Shown here: one piece after another, positions 22,001 to 47,996 of the stretch
How the letters are laid out: each line of letters opens with the position of its first letter
Numbering within the stretch: the first letter of the stretch is position 1
Assembly (NCBI GenBank): GCA_035529595.1
Contig: DATKWK010000039.1
Location: 14,751 to 78,750 of the forward strand
Length of the DNA stretch: 64,000 nt
Origin: Candidatus Bathyarchaeia archaeon
GTDB taxonomy: Bacteria; Patescibacteriota; Microgenomatia; PFEM01; JAFGMK01
Direction of reading: 5' to 3'
Translations under genes and position numbers: made by a program
Notes under the pieces: generated by a model
Database searches by the model: none
What the model saw: only the letters and a program-made list of their open reading frames with translations
What the model was told of the DNA's origin: nothing

Positions 22001-22573
22001 ATGGCTTATAAAATCTGTATTTCCGGTGCCGCCGCCGGCCCGTCAGTTAAGACTGGTGCTCCGTTGGCGGCAAAAATCGGTGAAGAGATTGCTAAACGGG
22101 GCCATATTTTGGTGACGGGCGCTACTGTTGGTGTTTCTTTTGAAGCAGCCAAAGCTGCCAAGAAAACAGGGGGCGTGGTTGTCGGCTTTTCCCCGGCCAG
22201 TTCCGAGGAAGAGCACGTTGGTAAATTCCAGCTTCCGGAAAGTAAGTATTTTGATTACGTAGTTTATACTAAATCAGGCTATACGGGCAGAAATCTTTTA
22301 ATGGTTCGTAGTTGTGATGCGACCATTATTATTGCCGGCAGGGTCGGAACTCTGAATGAATTCACTTGCGCTTTTGAGGAAAACGAAATTGTCGGTGTCT
22401 TGGAAGGTTCGGGTGGAATTGCGGATGAGATCAGGAAGATCATTAAAATTGCCGGTAAAGGGAAGAGAAAAACCTTTTTTGAACGAGATCCGGTTATAAT
22501 GGTTGATGAAATTTTTAGAAGAATTAAATCGGAAAAAAAGGAAAAGAAAAAGTTCCATTTGGAATATAGATAG
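22001..22573 (+). CDS. LOG/TIGR00725-like Rossmann-fold nucleotide-binding protein
   Basis: 'ISGAAAG...LVTGATVG...IIIAGRVGTLNEF' layout typical of the lysine-decarboxylase-like (LOG) family. Confidence 0.55.
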   Translation: MAYKICISGAAAGPSVKTGAPLAAKIGEEIAKRGHILVTGATVGVSFEAAKAAKKTGGVVVGFSPASSEEEHVGKFQLPESKYFDYVVYTKSGYTGRNLLMVRSCDATIIIAGRVGTLNEFTCAFEENEIVGVLEGSGGIADEIRKIIKIAGKGKRKTFFERDPVIMVDEIFRRIKSEKKEKKKFHLEYR

Positions 22574-25234: not shown

Positions 25235-25883
25235 GATTATACCCACTATTCTGACTAAATCAGTTGAGGAGACGAAAAGCAGATTAGATGCGGTTATAGG
25301 AACCGTAAGTCGGGTACAAATAGATGTCGTGGATGGAATATTTGCACCCAATAAAACTGTTTCCTTAGAGGCAATTTCTCAGATTGAGACAAGTTTAGAT
25401 TATGATGTCCATCTGATGGTAGAGAATCCGCTTAATTGGATAGACAAAAGTTTGCTGTTAACGGCCAGTCGTCTTAGTGCTCAAATTGAAGCGATGCCAA
25501 GTCAGGAAGATTTTGTCGTTCACGTTATTGAATCAGGGATGAAAGTCGGTTTAGCCTTAAATTTAAAAACGGGGATAGAAAGTTTAGATTTTCAAATTCT
25601 TTCGGCATTGGATTCTATATTACTTCTAGCGGTGGAAGCCGGCTTCAGTGGGCAGCCTTTTAACGATCAGGTGTTAGGCAAGATTAAAAAGCTTAAGGAG
25701 ATCAGAGAAAAGGGTAATTTTAGCTTTAAAATCGGTGTTGATGGCGGATTGGACAAAACGAATATCGTAAGTGTAGTCGAGGCAGGGACTGACGAATTGG
25801 CAATCGGAAGTGCTATTTATAACCAGAAGAACCCGGCTGAAGCGATCGAAGATCTGAAAAAACTTATAAAAAATAGTAAATAA
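25224..25883 (+). CDS. rpe: ribulose-phosphate 3-epimerase
   Basis: 'VDVVDG...P' and 'HLMVENP' ... 'VDGG'. The ATG at 25224 overlaps the gap stop; the track's longer ORF starts at 25197. Confidence 0.8.
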   Translation: MLPEIIPTILTKSVEETKSRLDAVIGTVSRVQIDVVDGIFAPNKTVSLEAISQIETSLDYDVHLMVENPLNWIDKSLLLTASRLSAQIEAMPSQEDFVVHVIESGMKVGLALNLKTGIESLDFQILSALDSILLLAVEAGFSGQPFNDQVLGKIKKLKEIREKGNFSFKIGVDGGLDKTNIVSVVEAGTDELAIGSAIYNQKNPAEAIEDLKKLIKNSK

Positions 25884-26797
25884 TGATGCCTAAAAACTCG
25901 ATTTTTTATCTTAAAGAGAAAGCTTCTCAAATAAGAACTGATATTATTAATATGACAGCAGCGGTGGGGAAATGCCATTTGGCAGGACCATTATCTTCGG
26001 TCGATCTTATTACGGCTTTGTATTTTAGTAAGATTCTGAAATATGATGCTAAAAATCCTCTATGGGATAAGCGGGACCGCTTTATCCTTTCTTGCGGTCA
26101 TTATGCGCCTGTTTGGTATTCGGTTTTGGCGCGGGTCGGTTATTTTAACCCGAAAGAGCTCATAAATTTGCGCCAGATTGAATCTTTTTTACAGGGTCAT
26201 CCTTCTTGCCTACATAGTAATTTTGTCGAAGTTTCAACCGGGTCTCTTGGCCAAGGGTTATCGGTCGGAGTTGGTATGGCGCTTGGGTTGAAACTTAGAA
26301 ACACTTCGGCTGGTGTCAAACTGGATCTGCCAGCTGACAGTGAAAGCCATGATTCCTCCGAAGTAAATAGGAATAATATCTGGGTTTTGACTTCGGACGC
26401 GGAATATCAGGAAGGTCAGACCTGGGAGGCGATAATGAGCGGATCCAAATTTAGATTAGGAAATTTGAAAGTAATTGTTGATACCAATGGGATTCAGATT
26501 GACGGTCTGATAAAAGACTTAATGCCGCTTGGTAACTTAGTGACTAAGCTTGAAAACTTCGGTTGGACAGTGTTCTCAATTGACGGTCACGATATGAGCC
26601 AGATTATAGGAAGTTACCAAACAGCGCTTGAAATAAGGAATAAACCAGTAGCGATTGTAGCCAAAACCATAGCCGGAAAAGGAGTATCTTTTATAGAAGG
26701 CAAGTGGCAGTGGCACGATGGAGAGCTAACCAAAGAACAGCTCAAAACGGCAATAAGAGAGTTGGGTGAGATTGATAGCGAGAACTTTCATGATTAG
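25883..26797 (+). CDS. transketolase, N-terminal (TPP-binding) subunit
   Basis: 'GHYAPVWYSVLA' and 'GSLGQGLSVGVGMALG'. This is a split tkt. Confidence 0.85.
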   Translation: MMPKNSIFYLKEKASQIRTDIINMTAAVGKCHLAGPLSSVDLITALYFSKILKYDAKNPLWDKRDRFILSCGHYAPVWYSVLARVGYFNPKELINLRQIESFLQGHPSCLHSNFVEVSTGSLGQGLSVGVGMALGLKLRNTSAGVKLDLPADSESHDSSEVNRNNIWVLTSDAEYQEGQTWEAIMSGSKFRLGNLKVIVDTNGIQIDGLIKDLMPLGNLVTKLENFGWTVFSIDGHDMSQIIGSYQTALEIRNKPVAIVAKTIAGKGVSFIEGKWQWHDGELTKEQLKTAIRELGEIDSENFHD

Positions 26798-27782
26798 TAA
26801 AACTAAAAAAGCAAAATTCAAAACACAGGCTCTTAACCTAAAATCTAAGATAGATAAAAAAGAATCAAATCGTGAAGGATTTAAACGGGGATTATTGAAA
26901 GCAGCCGAGATTGATCATCGTATTGTGGCGCTTTCGGCTGGCTTAAAAAGCTCGTTGCGACTTTCGGAATTTGAAAAAAAATATCCTGATCGTTTTTTTG
27001 AACTTGGAGTCGCCGAGCAAAATATGATCGGTATCGCCGCCGGTTTGGCTTTAACTGGTCTGGTTCCTTTTGCCTGTTCTTTTGCCTGTTTTTCGCCGAC
27101 GCTTACCTTCGGTCAGATCAGGCAATCGGTTTGTGAATCGGCAGCTAATGTTAAAATTGTTGGCTCGCATGGTGGGGTTATGACCGGTGCCGATGGAATT
27201 TCTCATCAGGCACTTGAGGACATTGCGCTGATGCGGACTTTGCCGGAAATGACGGTAATTGTTCCGGCTGATTCGCTTGAAGCAGAAGCAGCGACTCTGG
27301 CGGCTGCTAAAATTAATAGTCCGGTTTATCTCCGTTTGACGCGTCCGGAAACGCCGATTTTGACTCAAGGTCAGTTTGAAATCGGCAAAGCGCAGATTTT
27401 ACGGCAAGGAACTGATTTAACTATTATCGGTTGCGGCCCGATTTTATTTGAGGCTTTAAAGGCCGCCGAAATTTTAGGGAAAAAAGGTATTAGTGTCGAA
27501 GTGATTAATTGTTCGACGATTAAGCCAATTGATCAGGCAACGGTAATTACCTCGGCACGAAAAACCGGTCGGGTTTTGACAATTGAAGACCATAGCATTT
27601 TTGGCGGTTTAGGTTCAGCGGTCGCCGAAGTATTAGGCCAAAATCAGCCAACTAAAATGAAAATCATGGGGATGGAGAGCTTTGCGCAGTCTGCTAGGAA
27701 TTTTAACCAGCTAATTGAAAAATATAGGCTGGATAGTTATAATATCTTAAAAGAATGTTTAATTTTTTTTAGGAAAAATTAA
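26790..27782 (+). CDS. transketolase, C-terminal subunit, with a non-canonical C-terminal ~35 aa
   Basis: Pyrimidine-binding and C-terminal domains of Tkt. The tail 'FAQSARNFNQLIEKYRLDSYNILKECLIFFRKN' diverges from the canonical tail preserved as a remnant at 29171-29305. Confidence 0.85.
   Translation: MISKTKKAKFKTQALNLKSKIDKKESNREGFKRGLLKAAEIDHRIVALSAGLKSSLRLSEFEKKYPDRFFELGVAEQNMIGIAAGLALTGLVPFACSFACFSPTLTFGQIRQSVCESAANVKIVGSHGGVMTGADGISHQALEDIALMRTLPEMTVIVPADSLEAEAATLAAAKINSPVYLRLTRPETPILTQGQFEIGKAQILRQGTDLTIIGCGPILFEALKAAEILGKKGISVEVINCSTIKPIDQATVITSARKTGRVLTIEDHSIFGGLGSAVAEVLGQNQPTKMKIMGMESFAQSARNFNQLIEKYRLDSYNILKECLIFFRKN
27666..27782 (+). repeat. left copy of the duplicated tktC 3'-end segment (direct repeat partner at 29190-29305)
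   Basis: Shared 14-mer 'gcgcagtctgctag' and shared end 'atctt(tt)aaaagaatg'. The encoded peptides are homologous (GMESFAQSAR... versus GMKGFAQSAR...). Confidence 0.6.
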
Positions 27783-27798
27783 GAAGGAGGTGAAAATT

Positions 27799-28554
27799 AT
27801 GGATGAAGATTTTAGAACAGGAGATATAAAAGAAATAGCTAAGGAAAGAACAATAAATGATGCTGTTCTTCTTAGGCGAGGTGCTAGTTATGTGCTTGAC
27901 GAGCAGACTGGGAAGTTAAGACTTAGGCCGACTCGAGGGCAAGTCGAAGATGCCCGGTTTGAAATGGAAGATTATATGGAAAAACGCGCTCGTATTGATG
28001 AAGATGCAAAAAGTGCCGCCGAAATGTTTGGTGATAAACCAATTGATTATGTATTTGACGAAAAGCAACAAGTTCGGTTCCAAAAAGTCTTAGCTCAACA
28101 TCTTAATCTTGGAGAAGTTAAATTAGAGGGAGCTTCTAGGATAGTGATGCGATACGAAGAGGATGAGCAAAAAAATGTGCGAGAATTAGCCGGGATCGAA
28201 GTAAAATATATTTTACCGAATCAAGGAGAGGCTACAGTCATGATTGAAGGTTTTACTCATCAAGAATTAGCTTCTGTTCTTATAGGAAAAGAGAAACCAA
28301 CAGCGGAGGAGATTGTGTCTTGGAAAGAGCAGAGTGATGAAAGATCTCAAACAGAATGTTTCGATCTAGGATGGGATGACTTTCCGCTTGGCCCTAACTG
28401 GAGAGAGATTTATCATCCTATGCTAAAAGGAATGAAAATCGGTCGTGATCATGAGGCGGCAGTTCAGTTGGAGCATCATCTTATAAGAGGGTTTGGCTAT
28501 GAGGCCGAATTTGAAGAATTAGTTGGCATTAAGTTAGAACCAATAAAAAAATAG
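27799..28554 (+). CDS. hypothetical protein (cassette gene 1)
   Basis: Strong RBS 'agaaggaggtgaaaatt' 8 nt upstream of ATG; acidic soluble protein; no recognised motif. The track start is GTG 27790. Confidence 0.5.
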   Translation: MDEDFRTGDIKEIAKERTINDAVLLRRGASYVLDEQTGKLRLRPTRGQVEDARFEMEDYMEKRARIDEDAKSAAEMFGDKPIDYVFDEKQQVRFQKVLAQHLNLGEVKLEGASRIVMRYEEDEQKNVRELAGIEVKYILPNQGEATVMIEGFTHQELASVLIGKEKPTAEEIVSWKEQSDERSQTECFDLGWDDFPLGPNWREIYHPMLKGMKIGRDHEAAVQLEHHLIRGFGYEAEFEELVGIKLEPIKK

Positions 28555-28636
28555 AGCGACCTTTAGATTCTTATAAATGAATGGCGGGTCAAATTATTTT
28601 TGCTAAGTTCAAAATAAGAAGGAGGTGAAAATTGTT

Positions 28637-29056
28637 ATGGATGAACAAGTAGGTGTTCTTGAAGGCGTTGTCAACACGGGGCAGAAAGATCTTAAACATT
28701 ATCGAGAAACTATTACCCAAGGAGAAATTGAAGAAGCAAAACAATTAGTTGAGGATGTGGTTTTTTTAGCAAGTTGGGATGGAGCGGCAGCCGATGGGAC
28801 AATTTGGCATTGGTATCCTAAAGAAGGTGGAGATTCTCTTCCTGTTGCTCGTGTAAATTCAGCTTATGAAGGTCGGGGTTTTGAAGGACTCAAAGGAGCC
28901 CAGATGTTTCTGGAGGACCATGGAAAACATACTTATTCTGAGGAAGATGAAAAAAGAATGACACCCGATCTAAAGGCGGTAGACTACATAAGAGGAAAGC
29001 AACAACTGTGGCAAGCAAAGGGTAAAGAAGCGCCGCGGTTTCGAGTAAAGGTATAA
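28637..29056 (+). CDS. hypothetical protein (cassette gene 2)
   Basis: Identical RBS block 'agaaggaggtgaaaatt' followed by 'ATGGATGAA', as for gene 1; no recognised motif. The track start is GTG 28625. Confidence 0.5.
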   Translation: MDEQVGVLEGVVNTGQKDLKHYRETITQGEIEEAKQLVEDVVFLASWDGAAADGTIWHWYPKEGGDSLPVARVNSAYEGRGFEGLKGAQMFLEDHGKHTYSEEDEKRMTPDLKAVDYIRGKQQLWQAKGKEAPRFRVKV

Positions 29057-29170
29057 ATCCCAAAAAAAGATTTTTTTGTGACTTTTTATCTTACCTGTTA
29101 TAAATTGTAAAGTACAAAATACAGGTGAGAAGTTTTCTTGTGCCAAAAAATTTAATTGAACACTGTTTAA

Positions 29171-29305
29171 AATTGTCGCTGTTTCGATTCGATGGGAATG
29201 AAAGGTTTCGCGCAGTCTGCTAGAGATTATCAGGAGTTGCTTGCAAAGTACGGTTTGATGAGCGACAATATTGTCAGAGAAGGATTAAATCTTTTAAAAG
29301 AATGA
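29171..29305 (+). pseudogene. displaced 3' end of the transketolase C-subunit gene (44 codons, in frame to TGA 29303-29305, overlapping the eamA-like ATG)
   Basis: Translates to '...FDSMGMKGFAQSARDYQELLAKYGLMSDNIVREGLNLLKE*', a canonical Tkt C-terminus paralogous to the tail of the 26790-27782 CDS. Confidence 0.6.
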
Positions 29306-29724
29306 ACACAGAAAATTTTATCTACCTTTTGTTAATATTTATACTTTGGGGTACTTGGGGTTTCTTCAGTAAAATTGCCACCAATAGATTGGGCGGTTTC
29401 CAGACAATGTTCTGGGATTCTCTTGGTTTCATTTTGGCTTTTATTTTTTTTCTCCTTCTAAGCTTAAAGAAATTGCTGCCCTTAAAAACAAATCTTCCGG
29501 AAATTTTCCTGGCTGCTTTAGGAGGGGTATTCGGGATGTTAGGTTACATTTTTTTCTATTTGCTTTTATCAAAAAATGAAGCAAGTATTGTTGTTCCATT
29601 GACTGCTTTATATCCAGCTTTAACTATTTTTTTGGCAGTTTTATTTTTAAAAGAAGCGTTGAGTATTACTCACCTTGCTGGTATTATTCTAGCTCTTTTA
29701 TCGATCTTTTTGTTAACGAAATGA
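29302..29724 (+). CDS. small DMT/EamA-like membrane protein (4 TM)
   Basis: Four TM segments of the EamA-domain type. Confidence 0.5.
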   Translation: MNTENFIYLLLIFILWGTWGFFSKIATNRLGGFQTMFWDSLGFILAFIFFLLLSLKKLLPLKTNLPEIFLAALGGVFGMLGYIFFYLLLSKNEASIVVPLTALYPALTIFLAVLFLKEALSITHLAGIILALLSIFLLTK

Positions 29725-31998: not shown

Positions 31999-34533
31999 TT
32001 ATCTGCTGATGATTTCCCAAACTACTTCGCCCTCTTTAGGGGGTTGATAATCAACGATAGCTGGTTGGGGAAAGATGATCTTTTCATCTTCAGTGCCTAA
32101 AATCTTTTCCCGTTCTGTTTTTTCTTCGTCCTCAGTCGGCTTTAAAAAACAGTGATTTTTTGGCTCGGTGCCGGCAGTAAAAATTTCGGTTTTAACCGGA
32201 CAACCCAGGCAGGGGAGGGTACCGGTTAACGGACAGATCTTTGTTTCGATAATTCCTTCAGGACGAGAAAAAGGGGTGTCCTCTTTATCGGCAATTAAAG
32301 TAGTCATGATTTTGTTCCAAATGGATGAAGCACCGGTAAGACCGGAGGCAATGTAGCTCATGGGCGAATTGTCATTATTGCCAACCCAGGCAGCCACCAA
32401 AATATCAGGTGTATAACCGATGGTCCAGTTGTCTCGAAGACTGTTAGTTGTTCCGGTTTTAACAGCTATAGTTTTGTCGGGAATAACAAGGAGTGAATGG
32501 CTGCCAAAAGCAGGGGTTCGTGCCTGGTTGTCAGTTAGGATATCATTGATCAAATAAGTAGTTTGAGGATTTAGGACTTGTTTAGGCTGGCAGATTTTTT
32601 CTTTAACTGCTTCAGCGGCCGGGGCGTCTGGCGAATCGCTGCTTTCTTGAGCGCATTCATTACCGGAATAAAGTTTTCCCCGATAATCGCTGACCTGTAA
32701 AATTGGATTAAGGTTAATTTGTTGACCTGAATTTGCCAACGTTCCATAAACTACGGCTAAATCGATCATTTTAACCTCTCCGCCACCAAGGGTTAAAGAA
32801 AGACCAAAACGGTCTTCGTTGTTCCAGGTAGTGATACCTAATTTTTTCCCCATCTCGATCATTTTATTAACGCCGTAGGAGGAAAGAATTTTCACTGCCG
32901 GTACATTATAGGAGGAAGCGAGGGCGGTTCGGAGAGAAATATTTCCGTGGAATCGGTTATCGTAGTTGCGTGGAGAATAGGGCGGCTGTCCCGGGATTTT
33001 GTAAGTAATCGGTGTATCGGAAAGAATTGTTGCGGGGGTATAACCCAGTCCTAAAGCGACGGCGTAGTTGACTGGTTTAATCGCCGATCCCGGTTGACGG
33101 GGGCGGAGCGTTACATTAACGTTGCCATCATGCTCGGTATCAAAGAAGTTTTTCGAACCGACCATCGCCAGAATTTCTCCGGTCTTAGGGTTGGTAATTA
33201 AAACGGCGCCGTTGGTTACCGATAATTTTTTTAAGTTTTCAAGCTCTTCGCTGACAACTTTTTGGGCAAAATTCTGAATTTCCAGATCGAGACTGGTAAT
33301 TACCTCCAGGCCACCTTCTTCAACTAACTGTTCGCCGAATCGTCGGACTAACAAATCTTTGACGTACATCGTAAAATGAGGCGCATAGATATTAGTCTCT
33401 TGAGGAGCAAATTGGAGTTCAGTAGCTTTGGCGACTTCTGCTTCTTCGGGGGTAATGAAGTTTTCTGCTATCATTCTCTGTAGCACTTGAATTTGGCGTT
33501 TTTTAGCCATCTCGGGATGGGCCCCAAAAGGAGAATAAAGGGTAGGTGAAGCCGGTAAACCAGCCAGAAGAGCAGACTCGGCTAAATTAAGATCGCGGAC
33601 TGATTTGCCAAAATATTTCCAAGCAGCTTCCTCGGCGCCGTAAGCTGCACCACCATAGCCGACCTCGTTTAGATACATCTGAAGAATTTCCTCCTTATTA
33701 AATCGCATCTCTGTTTGGATGGAAAGAACTAGCTCTTTAATCTTGCGAATCAGCGTTCGCTCGGAAGAAAGTAAGGCATTTTTCACTAATTGCTGGGTAA
33801 TAGTTGAGCCACCCTGAAGCTTGCCTTCGGCCAAATTTTTAGCCAGTGAACGCAAAATACCTCTTGGAGAAAAACCGTAGTGTTGGTAAAATTCCGCATC
33901 TTCGATAGCCACCGTTGTCTGGATCAGGTAAGGGGGAATATCTTCGATTTTCACCAAACTTCGATTTTGGTTCCGATAGATTTTATAAAGTAAGCGACCC
34001 GTGCGGTCAAAAATCTTGGTGGAAACGACTTGACTTCGAGTAACCAGGCGATCAGGTTGGGGGAGGTCTTTTAAAATGATGGTGTAGCCCCAATAACCGC
34101 TACCGGCCAAAACGGTGAGAATTAAAAGAAAGAGAAAGAACTTCCATCCGAGTTTGGTTAATCTTAATTTAAGAGAAAGATGCTGCTTCGGTTTAATCTC
34201 AGGTTGGACAGAACAGGGTCTTGCTTTCGGATTTAAAGACAAGATTATTTTCCCTAAACCGGAAAAAAGAGAGGTGACCAGATCTAAAGCAAAGAGGAAC
34301 AATTGGATGATTAGGTCAAAGACTAATTGGATAAGACCGGTAATGGTTTTGAAGACGAATAGGCACGAAACCTTTAGCATCAGGAGGAATCGAATAAGCA
34401 GAAGCCATAATTCAAAAAGCAGCCAAAGAACCGGCCGACCGATAATTTCAAGGATAAATCCGGCAAGATTAAAAAAAATTTTAACAAGTTTGGCGATCCC
34501 GCCGTTGGCAGGACCTGTCCTTTTCATCGCCAT
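31999..34533 (-). CDS. penicillin-binding protein 1A (bifunctional GT51 transglycosylase/transpeptidase) with a ~140-aa multi-TM N-terminal extension
   Basis: GT51 'EDAEFYQHYGF'; transpeptidase SxxK 'GSAIKP', 'SYN' and 'KTGTTN'. Confidence 0.85.
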   Translation of the reverse strand: MAMKRTGPANGGIAKLVKIFFNLAGFILEIIGRPVLWLLFELWLLLIRFLLMLKVSCLFVFKTITGLIQLVFDLIIQLFLFALDLVTSLFSGLGKIILSLNPKARPCSVQPEIKPKQHLSLKLRLTKLGWKFFLFLLILTVLAGSGYWGYTIILKDLPQPDRLVTRSQVVSTKIFDRTGRLLYKIYRNQNRSLVKIEDIPPYLIQTTVAIEDAEFYQHYGFSPRGILRSLAKNLAEGKLQGGSTITQQLVKNALLSSERTLIRKIKELVLSIQTEMRFNKEEILQMYLNEVGYGGAAYGAEEAAWKYFGKSVRDLNLAESALLAGLPASPTLYSPFGAHPEMAKKRQIQVLQRMIAENFITPEEAEVAKATELQFAPQETNIYAPHFTMYVKDLLVRRFGEQLVEEGGLEVITSLDLEIQNFAQKVVSEELENLKKLSVTNGAVLITNPKTGEILAMVGSKNFFDTEHDGNVNVTLRPRQPGSAIKPVNYAVALGLGYTPATILSDTPITYKIPGQPPYSPRNYDNRFHGNISLRTALASSYNVPAVKILSSYGVNKMIEMGKKLGITTWNNEDRFGLSLTLGGGEVKMIDLAVVYGTLANSGQQINLNPILQVSDYRGKLYSGNECAQESSDSPDAPAAEAVKEKICQPKQVLNPQTTYLINDILTDNQARTPAFGSHSLLVIPDKTIAVKTGTTNSLRDNWTIGYTPDILVAAWVGNNDNSPMSYIASGLTGASSIWNKIMTTLIADKEDTPFSRPEGIIETKICPLTGTLPCLGCPVKTEIFTAGTEPKNHCFLKPTEDEEKTEREKILGTEDEKIIFPQPAIVDYQPPKEGEVVWEIISR

Positions 34534-34597
34534 AACCCGTATTTTAGTCTAGATTAAGGGAAAAATGAAGAGATAATTTGGAAATAGGAATTAGTCG

Positions 34598-36868
34598 TTA
34601 GGGAGTCGGAACGGGTAGGCTTTGAACCAGAGAGGTAGTATTTAAAACAGTTGCTCCGTTTGGGAAAGGACAATCAAGGCAATAGGGAGTGCCTAACTTA
34701 TCCCAGATAACCTGATGCTCTTGGATCTCAACATTTTCCGGTAGAGTTTTTCTATCAGCCAGTTGGCCCGTGGTTTTGTCAGTAGCAATTCCTCGTTTTA
34801 GATTCTCACTTTCGGTGGGAACGGTGCCGTCAATGAAGTATTCAAAACGGATTTGGCAAGGATTGTCTGGTGCTGGTCTAAGGCCGGAAGTATTACAAAT
34901 ATTGGCACCAACGATTCCTTCCGGTTTAAAGGGCCAACGTTGTTTTTGCTCTTCAAGCACTTGACTCATGATCTTATTCCAAATTGGCGAGGCACCGGTG
35001 ATGCCCGAAGCGACGGCACTCATCGGCGAATTATCATTATTGCCTACCCAGACAGCCACTAAAAAATCAGGAGTGTAGCCAATTGTCCAATTGTCCCGTT
35101 TGTCATTAGTGGTTCCGGTCTTGACGGAAACTTCCGGGTGGTCTTTGATGACTAACTGAGAGCGGCTACCGAAGGCAGTCGAGCGGGCGTAATTATCAAG
35201 AAGGATGTGAGAGATTAGATAGGCAGTTTCCATGGAAATTACTCTTTCTCCGAGATTTTCCTGGTATTGATAAAGGGTTTTTCCCTGCCAGTCTTCGACT
35301 TTGTCAATGGCGTAGAGTTTCTGTTTAATACCATTATTGGCAAAAGCGGAAAAAGCAATTGCCATATCATACATCGTCACCTCGCCACCGCCCAGAGTTA
35401 AAGAAAGCCCGTAATTAACCGGATCAGAGAAGGTTGAAATGCCCATCTTTCTGGCAAAGTTGATAAGCTGGCTGACGCCGTTAATTGCTAGCGTTTTGAC
35501 TGCCGGGATATTGTAAGAATTACCGAGGGCAAATCTGACTTGAGTCGGACCGTGAAAGCGGCCGTCGTAGTTAACCGGACAATAGAAGGGGCCGCTACCC
35601 GTGAAACAGGTAGGAACATCGTTTAAAACAGAAGCCGGTGTCAGTGTTTTATTTTCAAAGGCAAGCGCATAGTTAATAGGTTTAATAGAAGAACCCGGTT
35701 GCCGAGGCCGGAGAACGACATTGACATTACCATCATGCTCGAGGTCAAAATAATCATGAGAGCCGATCAAGGCTAAAATTTCTCCGCTTCCCGGTTTAGT
35801 AATTAAGGCGGCGCCATTAGTGACGTCAAGCTTTTCCAGTTTATTGATTTCATCAGCAATTGTCTGCTGGGTAAATTGCTGTAAAGTGAGATTGAGAGTG
35901 GTAGTGACACGCAGTCCTCCTTGTTCAACCAGATGTTCGCCAAATTTTTCTACTAATTGGTCTTTAATCCACAAGGCAAAGTGAGGCGCTTCAATTCCCA
36001 AAGTTACCGGGGCAAAATTAAGCTCTTCCTTTTTAGCATTTTCTTTTTCCTCCTGGCTAATATAGCCGTCTTCAAGCATTCTTTGCAAAACTCGTTCTTG
36101 TCGACTTTTGGCCAGTTCCGGATGAGCGCCAAATGGAGAAAAGCGTGTTGGAGAGGCAGGTAGGCCAGCTAAAAGAGCGGACTCGGCAAGATTTAAATCT
36201 GAGGCAGGCTTGTTGAAATATGTCTGAGCGGCTGCTTCGATTCCCCAAGCCGCGCCTCCGTAGGGCACTTGGTTTAAATACATTTCCAAGATTTTATCTT
36301 TAGAATAGATCATTTCGGTGGTCCAGGCAAGAATTGCTTCTCTAATTTTGCGTCTCAGGGTTCTTTCAGGTGTCAGGAGGGCATTTTTAACCAGTTGCTG
36401 GGTAATAGTTGAGCCGCCTTGTAAAGTCTGGCGGAAAACAATATTGTAAAAGGCCCTCAAAATACTATGAGGAGCAAAACCATGATGGCGGTAAAAATCT
36501 TTATCTTCGGAAGCAATTGTTGCCCAGCGGAGATGGTCGGGTAAATTCTCCAGATTAACCGGGGTTCGTTTTTTCTCAGCGTAAATTTCATACAGTAGAT
36601 TTCCCTGCCGGTCAAAAATTTTGGTGGACACGGGAAAAGGAGTCGTAGTTAAACTGGTAGGCGAAGGTAAATCCTTGAGAATTAATAAATAAAAAATTAA
36701 AAGTAGAGATGACAGAATAAGTATTAAAGGGTAGTTCCTTTTCCAGAATCGAACAAATTTAGAGAGCGGTTTTTTTTGTTTTTGAATTGTCCCCATCTTC
36801 GACTCAGTTCTCTTTGCGAACATAAATCGAGGTTTTTTCTTTAATTTATTTCGGATTTTTTTCATCAA
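34598..36868 (-). CDS. penicillin-binding protein 1A (second tandem paralog)
   Basis: GT51 'EDKDFYRHHGF'; 'GSSIKP', 'SYN' and 'KTGTTND'. Confidence 0.85.
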   Translation of the reverse strand: MMKKIRNKLKKKPRFMFAKRTESKMGTIQKQKKPLSKFVRFWKRNYPLILILSSLLLIFYLLILKDLPSPTSLTTTPFPVSTKIFDRQGNLLYEIYAEKKRTPVNLENLPDHLRWATIASEDKDFYRHHGFAPHSILRAFYNIVFRQTLQGGSTITQQLVKNALLTPERTLRRKIREAILAWTTEMIYSKDKILEMYLNQVPYGGAAWGIEAAAQTYFNKPASDLNLAESALLAGLPASPTRFSPFGAHPELAKSRQERVLQRMLEDGYISQEEKENAKKEELNFAPVTLGIEAPHFALWIKDQLVEKFGEHLVEQGGLRVTTTLNLTLQQFTQQTIADEINKLEKLDVTNGAALITKPGSGEILALIGSHDYFDLEHDGNVNVVLRPRQPGSSIKPINYALAFENKTLTPASVLNDVPTCFTGSGPFYCPVNYDGRFHGPTQVRFALGNSYNIPAVKTLAINGVSQLINFARKMGISTFSDPVNYGLSLTLGGGEVTMYDMAIAFSAFANNGIKQKLYAIDKVEDWQGKTLYQYQENLGERVISMETAYLISHILLDNYARSTAFGSRSQLVIKDHPEVSVKTGTTNDKRDNWTIGYTPDFLVAVWVGNNDNSPMSAVASGITGASPIWNKIMSQVLEEQKQRWPFKPEGIVGANICNTSGLRPAPDNPCQIRFEYFIDGTVPTESENLKRGIATDKTTGQLADRKTLPENVEIQEHQVIWDKLGTPYCLDCPFPNGATVLNTTSLVQSLPVPTP

Positions 36869-38697: not shown

Positions 38698-40590
38698 GTG
38701 GCGTCAATAAAAACCAAGATTGATCCAACTGATTTTGCCAGAATCGGCAGTATTAACGGTACTGGGGAAAATACGATCATTAGCTTAGATGAGATTGGTG
38801 ATATCATTACTTCTGAAGGCAGTAAAGATGATGCTAACAAGATTAATACGCCTGAAGGAACTTCTTTTACTCTCTCCGAGTTCTTGAAAAAGGAATACGC
38901 CTTAAGAAAAGTATTTTCAAAACCAGTTGCCGAAGCTCATCGCAAGGGTGACATTATGTTGCATAAGCTCGGTTTTATCGATCGGCCTTATTGTTCGGGT
39001 CAGAGCCTTGAGTATGTGAAGAAATTTGGTCTTACTCACTATGCTTCTTTTGCAGCAGTGAAACCGGCCGGTCGTATTGAAGCACTGATTGACCATATGA
39101 TGAGAATGACAATGGCACTTCGGGCTCATTTTGGTGGGGCGATTGGTTGGGACGCTTTAAATATGTATATGGCTCCTTATTTGGGAGGAATAGGAGATCG
39201 GGATATCCGGCAGATTGCTCAAACAATCATTTATGGGTTTAATCAAACAGTTGGGCCTCATGGAGGCCAACCCGTCTTTTCCGATATTAACCTCTATTGG
39301 GAGATCCCTGATCATTTTGCTAATGTGCCGGCGATTGGTCCCCGAGGGGAATATACTGGTCGGACGTACAAAGATTATATCAAAGAGTCACAAGCTCTAG
39401 TTTGGCAGCTTTTAAACATTTATAAAAAAGGCGATGCTAAAGGTAAGCCTTTTTTCTGGCCTAAACCTAATATCCATATTACTAAAAAATTCTGGCAAAC
39501 ACCCGGTCACGAGCAATTTTTAGAGCATGTTTGTGACGTGGCTTCTAAAATGGGGAACCCTTATTTTATTTTTGATCGCGGATCAACGGCCAAGATTTCT
39601 GAATGTTGTCGTCTACAATTCGAGCTCTCTAAAGAAGATCTAAAAGATGCGCGCAAACCGTGGCGGATGCGTTATGCCGCCTGCCCTTATTTGGGGGTTA
39701 ATCTGCCAAGAATTGCCTATGAAGCCGGTCATGACGATCAGAAGTTTTTTGAGATTCTGGGAAGGAGACTGGAACTACTGACCCAAGCCCATCTTCAAAA
39801 ATACCGTTTCTTGAAGAAGCTATTTATGATGGGTTCAGCAGGTCCTTTGGGGATGTTGACGCTTCGGGCTAAGGGGGATTCAGAAACGTATCTACGGATA
39901 GAAAAGTTGAGTTTCATGAATGCAGTCGGTGGTCTTTCTGATGCCTGTAAGTATCATTTAGGAAAGGCAATTCACGAGTCTGGTCAAGCATTCAAATTTG
40001 GTTTGAAGGTGGTCGCTTTTATGAAAAAGAAATGTGATGAAGAAAGTAATAAAGCTGGAATTAAGATTCTTTTGGATCAGGAACCGGCTGAGTCGGCAAT
40101 GTACCGTTTCGCCAAGCTGGATCTTTTATATTTCCCCGAGCAAGCAAAAAAAATTGTTCATGGTGATCTAAAAAAAGGCGAAATTTATTATACCAATTCA
40201 AGCCAGTTAGATGTCGATGCCGATGTTGATATTTTTGAAAGAATTGAAACCGAAGGAAAGTTTCATTCAATGTTGCAAGGAGGAGCGTTGACTCATATTT
40301 GGTTAGGAGAATCGCGGCCGTCGCCTCGATCCATGGCCCGGTTGGTAAAAAAGGTTTTCGACGAGACTCAGAACGTCCAAGTGGCTTTTAGTCCCGAGTT
40401 TACTATCTGTAATGATTGCGGATGGACAACTCGGGGAATAAAGAAACGATGTCATTTTTGCCAAAGCAGGCAAGTCGATTGGATTACCCGCATCACTGGT
40501 TATTATTCCTTTGTTAAGCTCTGGAACCGAGGCAAGAGGGGAGAGTTGAGGGATCGGAGAAGAGAAAAAAATTACCGTTTCAAAAAATGA
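38698..40590 (+). CDS. nrdD: anaerobic ribonucleoside-triphosphate reductase (class III), copy 1, no ATP-cone
   Basis: C-terminal Zn ribbon 'CNDCG...CHFCQS'; glycyl-radical motif 'TRITGYYS'; 'CCRL' active-site region. GTG start. Confidence 0.85.
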   Translation: MASIKTKIDPTDFARIGSINGTGENTIISLDEIGDIITSEGSKDDANKINTPEGTSFTLSEFLKKEYALRKVFSKPVAEAHRKGDIMLHKLGFIDRPYCSGQSLEYVKKFGLTHYASFAAVKPAGRIEALIDHMMRMTMALRAHFGGAIGWDALNMYMAPYLGGIGDRDIRQIAQTIIYGFNQTVGPHGGQPVFSDINLYWEIPDHFANVPAIGPRGEYTGRTYKDYIKESQALVWQLLNIYKKGDAKGKPFFWPKPNIHITKKFWQTPGHEQFLEHVCDVASKMGNPYFIFDRGSTAKISECCRLQFELSKEDLKDARKPWRMRYAACPYLGVNLPRIAYEAGHDDQKFFEILGRRLELLTQAHLQKYRFLKKLFMMGSAGPLGMLTLRAKGDSETYLRIEKLSFMNAVGGLSDACKYHLGKAIHESGQAFKFGLKVVAFMKKKCDEESNKAGIKILLDQEPAESAMYRFAKLDLLYFPEQAKKIVHGDLKKGEIYYTNSSQLDVDADVDIFERIETEGKFHSMLQGGALTHIWLGESRPSPRSMARLVKKVFDETQNVQVAFSPEFTICNDCGWTTRGIKKRCHFCQSRQVDWITRITGYYSFVKLWNRGKRGELRDRRREKNYRFKK

Positions 40591-42692
40591 ATAGAAAAGT
40601 TCTAAAAACATATAGAGAAAAACGCGACGAAGTCTTGGACCGGGTGATGAATGTTCGAACGAGTGAGGATGAGTTGCGCAAATGGGATCACCAGGCGATC
40701 ATTCGGTCTTTAAAAACTGAGCTTGGTCCGGTTGATGGGCTTTGGGAGGAGATCGCTAAAAAAATTGAGCTTGATTTGAATAGAATGGGAGTCGAAACGA
40801 TTACCGCGCCGCTGATTCGTGAATTAGTTTGTGTTGAGCTGCTTCGTCGGGGAATGGAAAAAGAGTATAAAAAGTACCAGCGCCTTGGCGTACCCATTTA
40901 TGATGTCGACAATATTATTTTTACTCACAATACCGCCCGTTCTTCTAATAATCCTCATACACCGGAGACTACTAATCTGACCTTAGCCGAGTCAATTAAA
41001 AAAGATTATGCTTTATCAAGGATTTTTTCGCCGTCAGTTGCCGAAGCTCATCTTAAAGGTGATTTTCATCTGCATAAACTCGACTTTCCTGACCGGCCTT
41101 ATTGCTGTGGCAACAGCCTAGAATACGTCAAAAAATATGGCTTAAACACGGCTGCCTCCTTGGCAATTGCCAAACCGGCAAAACATGCCGATGTATTGAT
41201 TCTTCATATGATTAAATTTTCCTGTATGCTTCAAGTACACTTTTCCGGAGCTATTGGTTGGGAAGCGGTGAATATTTTTTTAGCCCCTTTTCTCGTCGGA
41301 GCAAGCGATCATGACTTAGAAGCCTTAGCTCAGCTTTTGATTTATGAATTCAACATGCAGAATGTAGCCAAAGGCGGCCAGGCAGTATTTTCTGATATTA
41401 ATCTTTACTGGGAGGTTCCGGATCACTACCGAAAAACACCGGCGATCGGACCGGGTGGAAAATATACCGGTAAAACCTACGGTGACTACCAGAAAGAGTC
41501 TCAACGGTTTTTGACTGCCCTGATGAAAGTTTATCTAAAAGGAGATGCCAGCGAACGGCCTTTTTTTTGGCCTAAACCGAACTTTCATATGACCGAAAAG
41601 TTTTGGCAATCTCCCGGCCATGAAGAGTTTTTAGAACTGGCTAGTACCGTCGCCGCCGAAAAGGGTAATACCGAATTTTTCTTTGACCGTGGTTCGTCGG
41701 TACGAATCTCTCAGTGTTGCCGGCTTTCATTTAAACTAAGCGAAGCGGAACTGGTGCAAACCAGACACCCGGAAAGAATGCGGCAAGCTTCGGGGCAATT
41801 TATTTCTCTGTTTCTGCCGCGGATTGCTTATGAAGCTTGTGGTTCAGAAAGAAAACTCTTTTCTATTCTAGGCAAAAGAATGGAGTTGGCTGCTAAAGCG
41901 CATCGTCAAAAGCATCGCTTTTTGTCTCGTTTGTTGGAGATGGGGATTGAAGGGCCGCTGTCGGCTTTATCTACAAAACAGAAGGACGACCCCGAGCCTT
42001 ACTATCGCCTTAAGAATTCGGTTTATCTTTTTACAATCGCCGGACTTAACGAGATGATTCAGTACCATACCGGTCAGGAACTTCACCAATCCGATCAGGC
42101 CTTAAAAATGGGTTTAAAAGTAATCAGCTTCATGAATAAAAAATGTACAGAGTTAGCCGGGAGGTATAAAATGCGTTTTGCCTTGGAACAATCGCCGATG
42201 GAAGGAACTTGTTATCGGATTGCTAAGCTTGATCTGAAATATTTTCCAAATCAAGCAAGTAAGGTAGTGAAAGGTAATTTAAATACAGGAGCAGTTTACT
42301 ACACTAATTCTTCTCAACTTAATAATAGTGTCAATATCGATCCGGTAGAAAGGGTTTACAAAGAAGGTCTTTTCCATCCTTTAATTGATGCCGGGGCAAT
42401 GACTCATATTTGGATTGGCGAACAGCAACCTTCCGCTTTAAGCATCGCCAGTTTCGTTAAAAAAACTTTTTACAATACGCGCAATGAATTGATTGCCTTT
42501 TCTCCGGAATTCAGTTTTTGTGGTGATTGCCGAAAAACCAGCCGGGGTTTGGTTAAAAAGTGCTTATTCTGTGGTTCGCAGGACATTGATCATGCCACTA
42601 GGGTTTCCGGCTTTTTTTCACTTACTTCAAGATGGAACAAGGGCAAAATCCAGGAATTAGAAGACAGATATCGGAATGAGGAAAGGTTTTAA
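40587..42692 (+). CDS. nrdD: anaerobic ribonucleoside-triphosphate reductase (class III), copy 2, with a degenerate N-terminal ATP-cone-like extension
   Basis: Clear paralog of copy 1 ('FSPSVAEAHLKGDFHLHKLDFPDRPYCCGNSLEYVKKYGL'); 'CGDC...CLFCGS'; radical motif 'TRVSGFFS'. The ATG overlaps the copy-1 stop (ATGA). Confidence 0.85.
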   Translation: MNRKVLKTYREKRDEVLDRVMNVRTSEDELRKWDHQAIIRSLKTELGPVDGLWEEIAKKIELDLNRMGVETITAPLIRELVCVELLRRGMEKEYKKYQRLGVPIYDVDNIIFTHNTARSSNNPHTPETTNLTLAESIKKDYALSRIFSPSVAEAHLKGDFHLHKLDFPDRPYCCGNSLEYVKKYGLNTAASLAIAKPAKHADVLILHMIKFSCMLQVHFSGAIGWEAVNIFLAPFLVGASDHDLEALAQLLIYEFNMQNVAKGGQAVFSDINLYWEVPDHYRKTPAIGPGGKYTGKTYGDYQKESQRFLTALMKVYLKGDASERPFFWPKPNFHMTEKFWQSPGHEEFLELASTVAAEKGNTEFFFDRGSSVRISQCCRLSFKLSEAELVQTRHPERMRQASGQFISLFLPRIAYEACGSERKLFSILGKRMELAAKAHRQKHRFLSRLLEMGIEGPLSALSTKQKDDPEPYYRLKNSVYLFTIAGLNEMIQYHTGQELHQSDQALKMGLKVISFMNKKCTELAGRYKMRFALEQSPMEGTCYRIAKLDLKYFPNQASKVVKGNLNTGAVYYTNSSQLNNSVNIDPVERVYKEGLFHPLIDAGAMTHIWIGEQQPSALSIASFVKKTFYNTRNELIAFSPEFSFCGDCRKTSRGLVKKCLFCGSQDIDHATRVSGFFSLTSRWNKGKIQELEDRYRNEERF

Positions 42693-47828: not shown

Positions 47829-47880
47829 AATACCTTTGTTCTTTAGTAATTTTTTCTTCTTTAGTATAATTAACTCGATT

Positions 47881-47952
47881 GCGCCTGTAGCTCAATGGTA
47901 GAGCATTACTCTTATAAAGTAAGGGTTCTTGGTTCGAATCCAAGCAGGCGCA
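47881..47952 (+). tRNA. tRNA-Ile, anticodon UAU
   Basis: Hand-folded cloverleaf: acceptor gcgcctg/caggcgc, D arm gctc-aatggta-gagc, anticodon stem ttact/agtaa with loop c-t-TAT-a-a, T arm cttgg-ttcgaat-ccaag. Confidence 0.65.
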
Positions 47953-47996
47953 CACTCAAAGAAAAGTAAGGAAGGTGCTTGAAAGCCGAAGGATTC

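What the first reader, a model, noticed from the sequence alone, without database searches (positions are those of the whole stretch)
27660..29305. 1.5 kb two-gene cassette inserted into the 3' end of transketolase-C, carrying a surrogate gene end and leaving the displaced original 3' end
The tktC reading frame ends in a non-canonical 35-aa tail (…FAQSARNFNQLIEKYRLDSYNILKECLIFFRKN*). Its stop codon is embedded in the RBS of the first of two unknown genes (27799-28554 and 28637-29056). About 1.5 kb downstream, an in-frame 44-codon fragment (29171-29305) encodes a textbook Tkt C-terminus (…FAQSARDYQELLAKYGLMSDNIVREGLNLLKE*). Its TGA overlaps the ATG of the eamA-like gene, exactly as expected for an uninterrupted tktC–eamA junction. 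The two tails share the nucleotide blocks 'gcgcagtctgctag' and 'atctt(tt)aaaagaatg', so they are homologous direct repeats bracketing the insert. This architecture, in which an incoming element provides a divergent copy of the target gene's 3' end and pushes the original copy downstream, is the signature of site-specific integrative elements (attL/attR) or of homology-facilitated cassette capture. The cargo is two acidic proteins with no recognisable motifs, each preceded by the identical 17-nt block 'agaaggaggtgaaaatt' and the start codon context 'ATGGATGAA', which suggests an internal promoter/RBS duplication. No integrase lies in the cassette; the nearest tyrosine recombinase is at 47997-48866.
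Basis: seen in the sequence. Interest (0 to 1): 0.8.

Follow-up and report, generated by a model that had tools for sequence, protein, structure and literature searches.

The report
Small gene cassette inside transketolase end
A 1.5 kb piece of foreign DNA with two unknown genes sits inside the last 30 codons of a transketolase gene in an uncultured bacterium; it brought a replacement gene end, and the original end lies stranded downstream, which is a small example of a well-known way that mobile DNA enters genomes.

Summary
The architecture is real. tktC (26790-27782) ends in a Tkt tail (27666-27782). A second Tkt tail (29192-29305) lies 1,526 bp downstream, and its TGA overlaps the eamA ATG. 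Two ORFs lie between them (27799-28554, 28637-29056).

Some details in the finding are wrong:
- Tail 1 is a normal full-length Tkt end, not an aberrant extended one.
- The second "shared block" is out of register and is a chance match.
- No other genome has a tktC-eamA junction.

Synonymous sites between the tails are saturated. The displaced tail is as conserved against the closest relatives as the gene body. The tail in use is more divergent and has residues unseen in 119 homologues, one of which creates a TATAAT box. Both tails share an identical 14-nt core that the relatives lack.

Best reading: a foreign promoter-to-hairpin unit integrated by a single Campbell-type crossover and brought a xenologous surrogate gene end. 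It has no recombinase, so it resembles a decayed, integrase-less integrative element (CIME-like).

No empty site, second copy or circular form was found. Cargo1 has one full-length homologue and a shared 45-aa N-terminal module. Cargo2 is an orphan. Their function is unknown. This is a known kind of event and of modest interest.

The parts
26790..27782 (+). tktC, the C-terminal subunit of a split transketolase. It is intact, and its last ~28 codons come from the insert.
   Evidence: Pfam Transket_pyr 4e-36 and Transketolase_C 2e-30. 75% identical to P0004.
27666..27782 (+). Repeat copy 1 (tail 1, in use): MGMESFAQSARNFNQLIEKYRLDSYNILKECLIFFRKN*
   Evidence: Codon-register alignment with tail 2 and relatives: 65% nt and 50% aa identity to tail 2. 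15.4 bits against the TktC profile.
27684..27697 (+). Identical 14-nt core GCGCAGTCTGCTAG, copy 1; the inferred crossover site.
   Evidence: Exactly two copies in the window and none in 168 other loci. Relatives have GCCGAATCAGCCCG at this position. Run-length p 0.03-0.06.
27698..27782 (+). Surrogate (xenologous) part of the tkt end, inferred to have arrived with the insert.
   Evidence: pN against relatives is 0.27-0.28, compared with 0.16-0.20 for tail 2. Y357 and I365 are each seen in 0 of 119 homologues, and R353 in 3 of 119.
27715..27743 (+). Promoter-like site TTGAAA-17-TATAAT inside the surrogate tail, 56 nt upstream of the cargo1 ATG.
   Evidence: Matches 11 of 12 positions. Only 5 such sites occur in 128 kb of both strands (2.2 expected), and 4 of the 5 lie just upstream of a gene. 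The TAT codon that completes TATAAT encodes the Tyr never seen in homologues.
27759..27807 (+). Translation-initiation block, copy 1 (extended Shine-Dalgarno AAGGAGGTGA plus ATGGATGAA).
   Evidence: 40-nt repeat at 80% identity, 19 nt of it identical. Local alignment score 50 against a shuffle maximum of 32.
27799..28554 (+). cargo1, 251 aa, acidic (pI 4.95), function unknown.
   Evidence: One full-length homologue, P0123 (35% identity, E 1e-31), plus a shared N-terminal module in about 10 other proteins. No Pfam, PHROG, PADLOC, NCBIfam or PDB match. GC3 0.286.
28594..28645 (+). Translation-initiation block, copy 2.
28637..29056 (+). cargo2, 139 aa, acidic (pI 5.25), an orphan.
   Evidence: Only a self-hit among 5.8 billion proteins. 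There is a weak, non-significant resemblance to the colicin E9 immunity protein. GC3 0.279.
29061..29130 (+). Two hairpins after cargo2 (29061-29078 is A/U-rich; 29089-29130 has a 10-bp stem followed by AAGUUUUCUU). Possible terminator.
   Evidence: RNA fold -27.6 kcal/mol, z = -2.1. Inverted repeat I17. The consensus terminator scan did not call it.
29192..29305 (+). Repeat copy 2 (tail 2, the displaced native tkt end): MGMKGFAQSARDYQELLAKYGLMSDNIVREGLNLLKE*
   Evidence: tblastn E 1.8e-8. 17.4 bits against the TktC profile. 25 of 36 residues identical to P0004. pN 0.16-0.20. JGI calls it a 37-aa gene.
29210..29223 (+). Identical 14-nt core, copy 2.
29302..29724 (+). eamA-like single-domain DMT transporter; its ATG overlaps the TGA of tail 2.
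   Evidence: Pfam EamA 2.7e-20, covering profile positions 5-134 of 135. NCBI name: DMT family transporter.

Best explanation
A foreign unit of about 1.5 kb (1,526 bp from core to core) was inserted into the last ~30 codons of tktC by one reciprocal, Campbell-type recombination of a circular DNA. The crossover was at or next to a 14-bp sequence (GCGCAGTCTGCTAG) that both partners shared.

The circle carried its own copy of the tkt 3' end, about 39 codons taken from a related lineage. After integration:
- The downstream part of that copy completes TktC, so the enzyme stays intact.
- The native end was moved 1.5 kb downstream. It survives as an unused relic and still overlaps the start codon of its old neighbour, eamA.

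The insert looks like a self-contained transcription unit:
- a near-consensus sigma-70-type promoter written into the surrogate coding sequence;
- two genes, each behind the same very strong ribosome-binding block;
- two hairpins after the second gene.

The insert has no recombinase. It was therefore either integrated by an enzyme supplied in trans, or it is what remains of a larger element. It is probably immobile now.

Shown: the repeat, the core, the divergence pattern, the expression signals and the unusual composition. Inferred: the direction of the event, a circular intermediate, the crossover point and promoter activity. The function of the two acidic proteins is unknown. My guess, with low confidence, is a small two-protein accessory or conflict module.
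For: - The repeat is real and is the only displaced gene end in the window.
- The tails are anciently diverged: pS is 0.97 outside the core. Yet both evolved as coding Tkt ends (pN/pS about 0.2-0.3), so tail 1 is a xenologue and not a fresh duplicate.
- Tail 2 is as conserved against the closest relatives as the gene body (pN 0.16-0.20 against 0.20). It is closer than tail 1 to 92 of 119 homologues, so it served as the functional end until recently.
- The identical 14-nt core differs at 6 sites from the closest relatives, 4 of them third codon positions. It is absent from 168 other loci.
- Tail 1 carries residues never or rarely seen in 119 homologues. One of them (Tyr, TAT) completes an 11/12 promoter match placed 56 nt before cargo1.
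- The cargo genes have GC3 of 0.28-0.29 against 0.383 +/- 0.037 for 60 host ORFs; only one host ORF is lower.
- The closest relatives have tktC overlapping the aldolase gene, with no cargo.
- The arrangement is identical on 8 independently assembled contigs, so it is not an assembly artefact.
- Integration into the 3' end of housekeeping genes, with a repeat that preserves the gene, and integrase-less derivatives (CIMEs) are established (PMC5704250).
Against: - No empty site, excision junction or second copy was found. The closest relatives are only 72-75% identical and lack eamA as well, so the ancestral state tktC(tail 2)-eamA is inferred and was not observed.
- No recombinase lies in or next to the insert. 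The only one in 64 kb is Xer-like and 19 kb away.
- The clustering of identity in the core is only marginally significant (p 0.03-0.06).
- Only 18 nt lie upstream of the core, so the expected switch in parentage across the core cannot be shown (informative sites 2:2 on the left and 18:8 on the right).
- The difference between the tails in distance to relatives rests on 36 codons.
- Synonymous codon usage of the cargo fits the host.
- Promoter and terminator are consensus matches only.
Confidence: 0.5

Rival explanations
1. Same outcome but no site-specific step. The cassette came from a related donor genome or a circularised fragment and was captured by host recombination. The route was either a single homologous crossover in the short shared tkt segment or homology-facilitated illegitimate recombination. 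The 14-nt core is then simply where the exchange resolved.
For: - No recombinase in the insert.
- Tail 1's best matches are the same clade as the host gene (P0004, P0034, P0005). Both tails share the rare FAQSAR signature, so the donor was a relative.
- Cargo codon usage fits the host.
Against: - Outside the 14-nt core the shared segment is only about 60% identical, and 14 nt is very short for RecA-type exchange (established knowledge).
- A linear donor with one homologous anchor normally replaces recipient DNA rather than duplicating it, so a circular intermediate is still needed.
- No donor-like arrangement (tktC-cargo) was seen in 161 loci.
Confidence: 0.2
2. Reversed polarity. Tail 1 is the native gene end and cargo1 and cargo2 are resident genes. 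The fragment 'tail 2 + eamA' was imported from another organism by illegitimate recombination, and a piece of the donor's tktC 3' end came along with eamA.
For: - eamA follows tktC in no other locus and is absent from the closest relatives.
- eamA GC3 is lowish (0.319, z = -1.8).
- The core identity could be chance (p 0.03-0.06).
Against: - Tail 2, not tail 1, resembles the closest relatives of the gene body, at the level of the body itself.
- Tail 1 has residues unseen in homologues.
- The cargo genes are the most compositionally deviant part, which would need a further, separate acquisition.
- The in-register identical core, with third codon positions shared by both tails but not by relatives, would be a coincidence.
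Confidence: 0.15
3. In-place duplication. The tkt end was duplicated within this genome, as a long target duplication or a tandem duplication around an insertion. The two copies then diverged, and the upstream copy evolved a promoter.
For: - The copies share the lineage-specific core and FAQSAR.
- The tail positions homologous to the promoter already match 9/12 in relative L162 and 8/12 in tail 2 (read from the alignment), so a promoter could evolve there.
Against: - Synonymous sites between the copies are saturated (pS 0.97). An unused copy of that age should have decayed, yet tail 2 is intact, in frame and as protein-conserved as the gene body.
- The copy under selection (tail 1) is the more divergent one.
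- This reading does not explain where the cargo came from or its low GC3.
Confidence: 0.08
4. Assembly or binning artefact: a chimeric join of two strains or organisms inside tktC.
For: The source is a metagenome bin with a doubtful taxonomic label.
Against: - The same arrangement is found on 8 contigs, including a separate Logan assembly of SRR8554511.
- The flanks are collinear with the relatives' operon.
- The two tails are far too different to be strain variants.
Confidence: 0.02

Closest known systems
[quoted passage not shown]
   Same: - Sits in the 3' end of a housekeeping gene.
- Is flanked by direct repeats, one of which rebuilds the gene end.
- The repeats share an identical short core.
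- Has no integrase or transfer genes.
   Different: - Only 1.5 kb.
- No related integrase-bearing element is known for this site.
- No evidence of mobility.
- Outside the core the repeats are 60% identical gene-end homologues rather than near-identical att sites.
- The host is an uncultured CPR-like bacterium.
Integrative elements and prophages that target the 3' end of protein-coding or tRNA genes (for example IMEs in ribosomal-protein genes, reviewed in PMC5704250; ICESt1/ICESt3 in fda, from my own knowledge)
   Same: A surrogate gene end is carried on the element. The topology is Campbell-type and leaves the displaced native end at the far junction.
   Different: Those elements encode a tyrosine or serine recombinase and are 10-100 times larger. 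None is encoded here.
Displaced 'orphan' C-terminal modules in Rhs/CdiA polymorphic toxin loci (my own knowledge)
   Same: An incoming module recombines in a short conserved stretch near the 3' end of a gene. It replaces the end and stacks the old end downstream, ahead of small accessory genes.
   Different: The target here is a metabolic enzyme, and the replaced end is functionally equivalent rather than a new toxin domain. The resemblance of cargo2 to an immunity protein is not significant.
Integron gene cassettes
   Same: Size (about 1.5 kb), circular-intermediate logic, one or two genes, no recombinase of its own.
   Different: - No attC-like site with the R' consensus.
- No integron integrase or attI nearby.
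- Carries its own promoter.
- Integrates into a coding sequence.

Membership tests
Site-specific integrative element / CIME | [quoted passage not shown] | tested here: met
   Repeats 27666-27782 and 29192-29305. tktC remains full length, with both Pfam domains and a tail that scores as a Tkt end.
Site-specific integrative element / CIME | A short identical (or nearly identical) sequence is present in both att sites. | tested here: inconclusive
   An identical 14-nt core lies in register in both copies and is absent from relatives. However, the run-length p is only 0.03-0.06.
Site-specific integrative element (ICE, IME, prophage) | The element encodes an integrase or recombinase. | tested here: not met
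   The insert holds only two ORFs with no Pfam, PHROG or NCBIfam match. The nearest recombinase is Xer-like and 19 kb away. This is compatible with a CIME only.
Site-specific integrative element / CIME | An unoccupied target (attB) exists in related genomes, or there are excision or circular junctions. | tested here: not met
   - All 8 contigs are occupied.
- The TktC cluster at 90% identity has one member, and reconstructed empty-site proteins are not on record.
- Relatives at 72-75% identity have tktC-FBA, without eamA.
- Reads could not be examined.
CIME | Derives from, or co-occurs with, a related integrase-bearing element that uses the same site. | tested here: not met
   No tail relic or cargo homologue next to tktC in 161 other loci. 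No hits in viral, phage or plasmid collections.
Integron gene cassette | An attC recombination site (imperfect palindrome ending in GTTRRRY), and an array next to intI/attI. | tested here: not met
   Hairpins exist at 29061-29130, but no GTTRRRY lies at the junction (direct reading). No integron integrase was found near the insert, and the one tyrosine recombinase examined (47997-48866) has a Xer-type domain pair. No dedicated attC model was available.
Colicin/pyocin DNase immunity protein (Im9 type), considered for cargo2 | A significant match to the family, and an adjacent nuclease toxin. | tested here: not met
   The phmmer match to Im9 has E 0.1-0.4 once His-tagged chains are set aside. 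It rests on WYPKEGGDSLPVARVN against YYPKEGDDDSPSGIVN. Pfam gives no Colicin_Pyocin hit even at E 10. cargo1 has no nuclease motif or match.
Split transketolase, C-terminal subunit (the target gene) | Transket_pyr plus Transketolase_C domains, located downstream of a Transketolase_N subunit gene. | tested here: met
   The operon is collinear with relatives.
Homology-facilitated illegitimate recombination product | A one-sided homologous anchor plus a microhomology junction, usually with replacement of recipient DNA. | tested here: inconclusive
   A homologous anchor is present. The right junction begins exactly at ATGGG with no homology upstream of it. The recipient DNA is duplicated, not replaced.

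The most novel reading that the evidence does not exclude
The 1,526-bp unit is a live member of an undescribed class of minimal cassettes in CPR/Patescibacteria-like bacteria. These cassettes would have no recombinase and would be moved in trans. They would target a short sequence in the 3' end of tktC and carry a surrogate gene end that doubles as their own promoter. Their cargo would be a new two-protein conflict module: cargo1 with a shared N-terminal module and a variable C-terminus, and cargo2 distantly like an immunity protein.
Probability: 0.08. Interest if true: 0.6.

Novelty: new member of a known kind. Interest (0 to 1): 0.3.

Why it matters
If the reading is right, this is a clean, very small example of how accessory genes enter the streamlined genome of an uncultured CPR-like bacterium without damaging a core pentose-phosphate/glycolysis operon. 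The incoming DNA replaces the gene end it interrupts and uses that replacement coding sequence as its promoter. It also provides two uncharacterised proteins, one of which defines a rare family with a conserved 45-aa N-terminal module. It does not open a new mechanism, because 3'-end integration with gene-end replacement and integrase-less remnants are textbook.

Tried and rejected
- Word-indexed homologue searches for both cargo proteins returned only self-hits.
- An exhaustive HMMER search for cargo1 gave one full-length homologue on a 1.7-kb contig, plus matches to the N-terminal module only. The contexts retrieved (L165, L168-L171) were too short to inform.
- Single-sequence AlphaFold models were poor (pLDDT 48 and 37). 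Foldseek against the PDB gave nothing at E<=0.001, so those results were disregarded.
- Pfam, PHROGs, PADLOC, NCBIfam and PDB profile searches gave no usable hit.
- The Im9 lead for cargo2 was inflated by a His-tag alignment and I rejected it as evidence.
- The scans of genome contigs and metagenome contigs with TktC found nothing closer than 54-57% identity.
- Viral, phage, plasmid and Rfam searches were empty. The profile of the N-terminal module could not be scanned.
- I searched for further tkt-tail relics in 164 locus records, three of which are this locus itself (161 other loci). The only candidate (L060) was a chance match inside a PfkB gene.
- I tested whether the cargo1-cargo2 spacer is a second decayed tkt tail, which would indicate accretion. 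It is not significant.
- cargo1 and cargo2 are not detectable paralogues (E 0.31).
- Synonymous codon usage does not mark the cargo as foreign. GC3 does.
Full report
**1. What is in the sequence**

The window reads like a CPR/Patescibacteria-type bacterial contig, although the public record names it a Bathyarchaeia MAG. Genes for TIM, a SLOG protein, RpiB, PGK, GAPDH, RPE, TktN and TktC run in one direction.

tktC (26790-27782) has both expected Pfam domains. Its TAA is followed at once by AGAAGGAGGTGAAAATT-ATG, the start of a 251-aa ORF (27799-28554). A second ORF of 139 aa (28637-29056) sits behind the same block. From 29192 to 29305 an in-frame stretch encodes MGMKGFAQSARDYQELLAKYGLMSDNIVREGLNLLKE*. 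Its TGA overlaps the ATG of a complete single-domain EamA/DMT gene (29302-29724). A class II aldolase gene and pfkB follow.

I searched the last 50 and first 60 residues of every ORF of 90 aa or more against the whole window. This is the only displaced gene end found (E 1.8e-8). The arrangement is identical on all 8 public contigs that carry these exact proteins, including an independent Logan assembly, so it is not an assembly artefact.

**2.

In codon register the two tails align without gaps over 36 codons, starting at ATG-GGR-ATG (27666 and 29192). They are 65% identical in nucleotides and 50% in amino acids.

- Tail 1 is only one residue longer than tail 2. It is not a 7-aa read-through.
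- Tail 1 scores 15.4 bits on a profile of 119 TktC homologues and tail 2 scores 17.4 bits, so both are genuine Tkt ends.
It reflects an internal similarity of the tail (NIVREG / NLLKE*) and is not homology between the copies.
- The seven codons 29171-29191 are not Tkt-like. Homology begins exactly at ATGGG.
- The one genuine in-register identical block is GCGCAGTCTGCTAG (27684-27697 and 29210-29223), spaced 1,526 bp apart.

**3. Relatives**

The two collection scans found nothing closer than 54-57% identity. The protein database gave three closer TktC proteins: P0004 at 75%, and P0005 and P0034 at 72%. Their tails read KIMGMSSFAESARDHQELLEKYGLNSENIVKEGLKLIR*.

On L162 and L164, tktC overlaps the aldolase gene by 4 nt. 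Neither eamA nor the cargo is present. L163 has other small ORFs.

Among 130 more distant loci with enough downstream sequence:
- the aldolase gene lies within 3 kb in 29 and directly adjacent in 5;
- eamA never occurs.

The tktC-to-aldolase interval is therefore variable in general, and the tktC-eamA junction is peculiar to this lineage.

No TktC variant at 90% identity or more exists in the 15-billion-protein collection. The two possible empty-site proteins are not on record either. A true empty site could not be found.

**4. Which tail is native**

All of the following are Nei-Gojobori counts on 36 codons.

- Synonymous differences are saturated in every comparison, including tail 1 against tail 2 (pS 0.82 overall; 0.97 without the core).
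- Non-synonymous differences between tail 2 and the three relatives are 0.16-0.20. The last 100 codons of the gene body give 0.20.
- Tail 1 against the relatives gives 0.27-0.28, and tail 1 against tail 2 gives 0.25.

Tail 2 is the closer tail to 92 of 119 homologues, and tail 1 to only 9. The best matches of both tails are the same clade as the body, and both share the rare FAQSAR signature.

Tail 1 has residues unseen or rare in 119 homologues:
- Tyr at column 357: 0 of 119.
- Ile at column 365: 0 of 119.
- Arg where 86 homologues have Gly: 3 of 119.

From these counts I conclude:
- The two copies separated long ago and both evolved as coding sequence.
- Tail 2 behaved as the functional end of this gene until recently.
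- Tail 1 evolved as a Tkt end in another, related lineage or on an element.

An old in-place duplication would have left tail 2 decayed, and it is not.

Caveat: this rests on 36 codons. The difference between the tails (about 15 against 23 non-synonymous changes) is not significant on its own.

**5. The core**

Within the saturated background, codons 7-11 are identical in both tails (GCG CAG TCT GCT AG). The three relatives read GCC GAA TCA GCC CG, which is six differences, four of them at third positions. The 14-mer occurs nowhere else in the window or in 168 other loci. Shuffling sites or codons gives p = 0.03-0.06 for such a run. That is suggestive, not decisive.

A single crossover in this core between a circle carrying a 39-codon tkt fragment and the chromosome would give exactly the observed structure: host-left/element-right at tail 1 and element-left/host-right at tail 2. 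Right of the core, informative sites favour tail 2 as host by 18 to 8. Left of the core there are only 18 nt and the count is 2 to 2, so the expected switch cannot be demonstrated.

**6. The insert looks like a transcription unit**

- **Promoter.** Inside the surrogate tail lies TTGAAA-17-TATAAT (27715-27743), an 11/12 match to the sigma-70 consensus, 56 nt before the cargo1 ATG. Only five such matches occur on both strands of the window (2.2 expected), and four of the five sit just upstream of a gene. The TAT that completes TATAAT is the Tyr codon never seen in homologues. The homologous positions match only 8/12 in tail 2 and 9/12 in L162. This suggests selection for a promoter within coding sequence.
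- **Ribosome-binding block.** Both cargo genes follow a ~35-nt repeat with 19 identical bases, TAAGAAGGAGGTGAAAATT, and then ATGGATGAA. It is an extended Shine-Dalgarno sequence. Only about five other genes in the window have GGAGGT-type sites.
- **Hairpins.** Two hairpins follow cargo2 (29061-29130; z = -2.1).
- **Composition.** Cargo GC3 is 0.286 and 0.279, against 0.383 +/- 0.037 for 60 host ORFs. Only one host ORF is lower. Synonymous codon preference is nevertheless host-like.

**7. The cargo**

cargo1 is acidic (pI 4.95). It has one full-length homologue among 1.84 billion representatives: P0123, at 35% identity and E 1e-31, conserved along its whole length. cargo1 is therefore a real gene.

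Its N-terminal ~45 residues form a module, RT.sDAeLL..GA.Y..De....L..T..Q...A..EME, with invariant R17, D21, G28, A29, Y31, D34, L42, T45 and Q48. About ten otherwise unrelated small proteins share it. Some carry it twice, and in one (P0126) it is fused to a SLOG/LOG-like domain.

cargo2 (pI 5.25) has no homologue. A phmmer match to colicin E9 immunity protein rests on WYPKEGGDSLPVARVN against YYPKEGDDDSPSGIVN. The E-value of 0.004 is inflated by a His-tag, and untagged chains give 0.1-0.4. Pfam shows nothing. I treat this as a lead only.

The two proteins are not paralogues. All family, structure, phage, plasmid and viral searches were negative.

**8. Interpretation**

A small foreign promoter-to-hairpin unit integrated Campbell-fashion at or near a 14-bp core in the tktC 3' end. 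It supplied a xenologous gene end that keeps TktC whole and carries the cassette's promoter, and it displaced the native end.

The unit has no recombinase. The only one in the window is a Xer-type enzyme 19 kb away, beside a tRNA-Ile and a TraG/VirD4-like ATPase.

The unit matches the published definition of a CIME, or a remnant of an integrative element (PMC5704250), in four respects: site type, gene-preserving repeat, shared core and lack of integrase. It fails the tests for an empty site and for a related integrase-bearing element. I therefore say it works like one and do not file it as a proven member.

Rivals:
- Homology-driven capture from a related donor (0.2).
- Reversed polarity, with tail 2 + eamA as the import (0.15).
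- In-place duplication (0.08).
- Assembly artefact (0.02).

**9. Verdict**

This is a real structural feature and most probably an old-fashioned 3'-end integration event in miniature. The promoter embedded in the surrogate coding sequence and the cargo1 module family are the most interesting details. Novelty: a new member of a known kind. Interest is modest (0.3).

Noticed in passing
window 31999-36868, 48998-49360, whole window: The public record labels the source a 'Candidatus Bathyarchaeia archaeon' MAG. However, the contig encodes two class A penicillin-binding proteins (Transgly + Transpeptidase) and a DivIC septum protein, and it uses Shine-Dalgarno sites. The closest TktC relatives include Patescibacteria/CPR bins, though some record titles name DPANN archaea or other bacteria. 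The contig is probably mis-binned or mislabelled.
   Followed up: partly
window 27799-27990 (cargo1 residues ~15-58); P0123, P0124, P0126-P0133: A conserved ~45-aa N-terminal module (RT.sDAeLL..GA.Y..De....L..T..Q...A..EME) is shared by about ten otherwise unrelated small proteins from metagenomes. It is duplicated in P0128, P0131 and P0132, and fused to a SLOG/LOG-like domain in P0126. It has no Pfam or PDB match.
   Followed up: partly
window 45495-48866: A Xer-type tyrosine recombinase (47997-48866, minus strand) lies next to tRNA-Ile(TAT) (47881-47953) and a 777-aa TraG/VirD4/HerA-like ATPase (45495-47828). This could be the edge of another integrated element, or it could be housekeeping Xer. 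I did not examine it.
   Followed up: no
window 29302-29724 and 29192-29305: Gene callers disagree here. NCBI calls EamA as 140 aa from the ATG that overlaps the relic. The Logan gene call on contig SRR8554511_18787 is a 105-aa product from 29407. JGI calls the 37-aa tail relic as a gene. eamA has no Shine-Dalgarno site of its own, so it may have depended on translational coupling to tktC and may now be poorly expressed.
   Followed up: partly
window 22001-22573: A SLOG cluster-4 (LOG-like) gene sits inside the glycolysis/pentose-phosphate operon, between the TIM and RpiB genes.
   Followed up: no
window 26790-26860 and 25883-26797: TktC has a 23-aa Lys-rich N-terminal extension that its closest relatives lack. 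TktN is about 30 aa longer than in L162 (304 aa against 273 aa).
   Followed up: no
window 38698-40590 / 40587-42692 and 645-1049 / 1127-1534: Adjacent paralogous gene pairs share end sequences (C-terminal match E 3e-11 for the first pair; N-terminal match E 5e-7 for the second).
   Followed up: no
L060 7722-7802: The PfkB motif GAGDAFSATFTAALALGMGIKDAL mimics a Tkt C-terminal tail (E 0.003). It could be mistaken for a second displaced tail, but it is a chance similarity inside an intact gene.
   Followed up: yes
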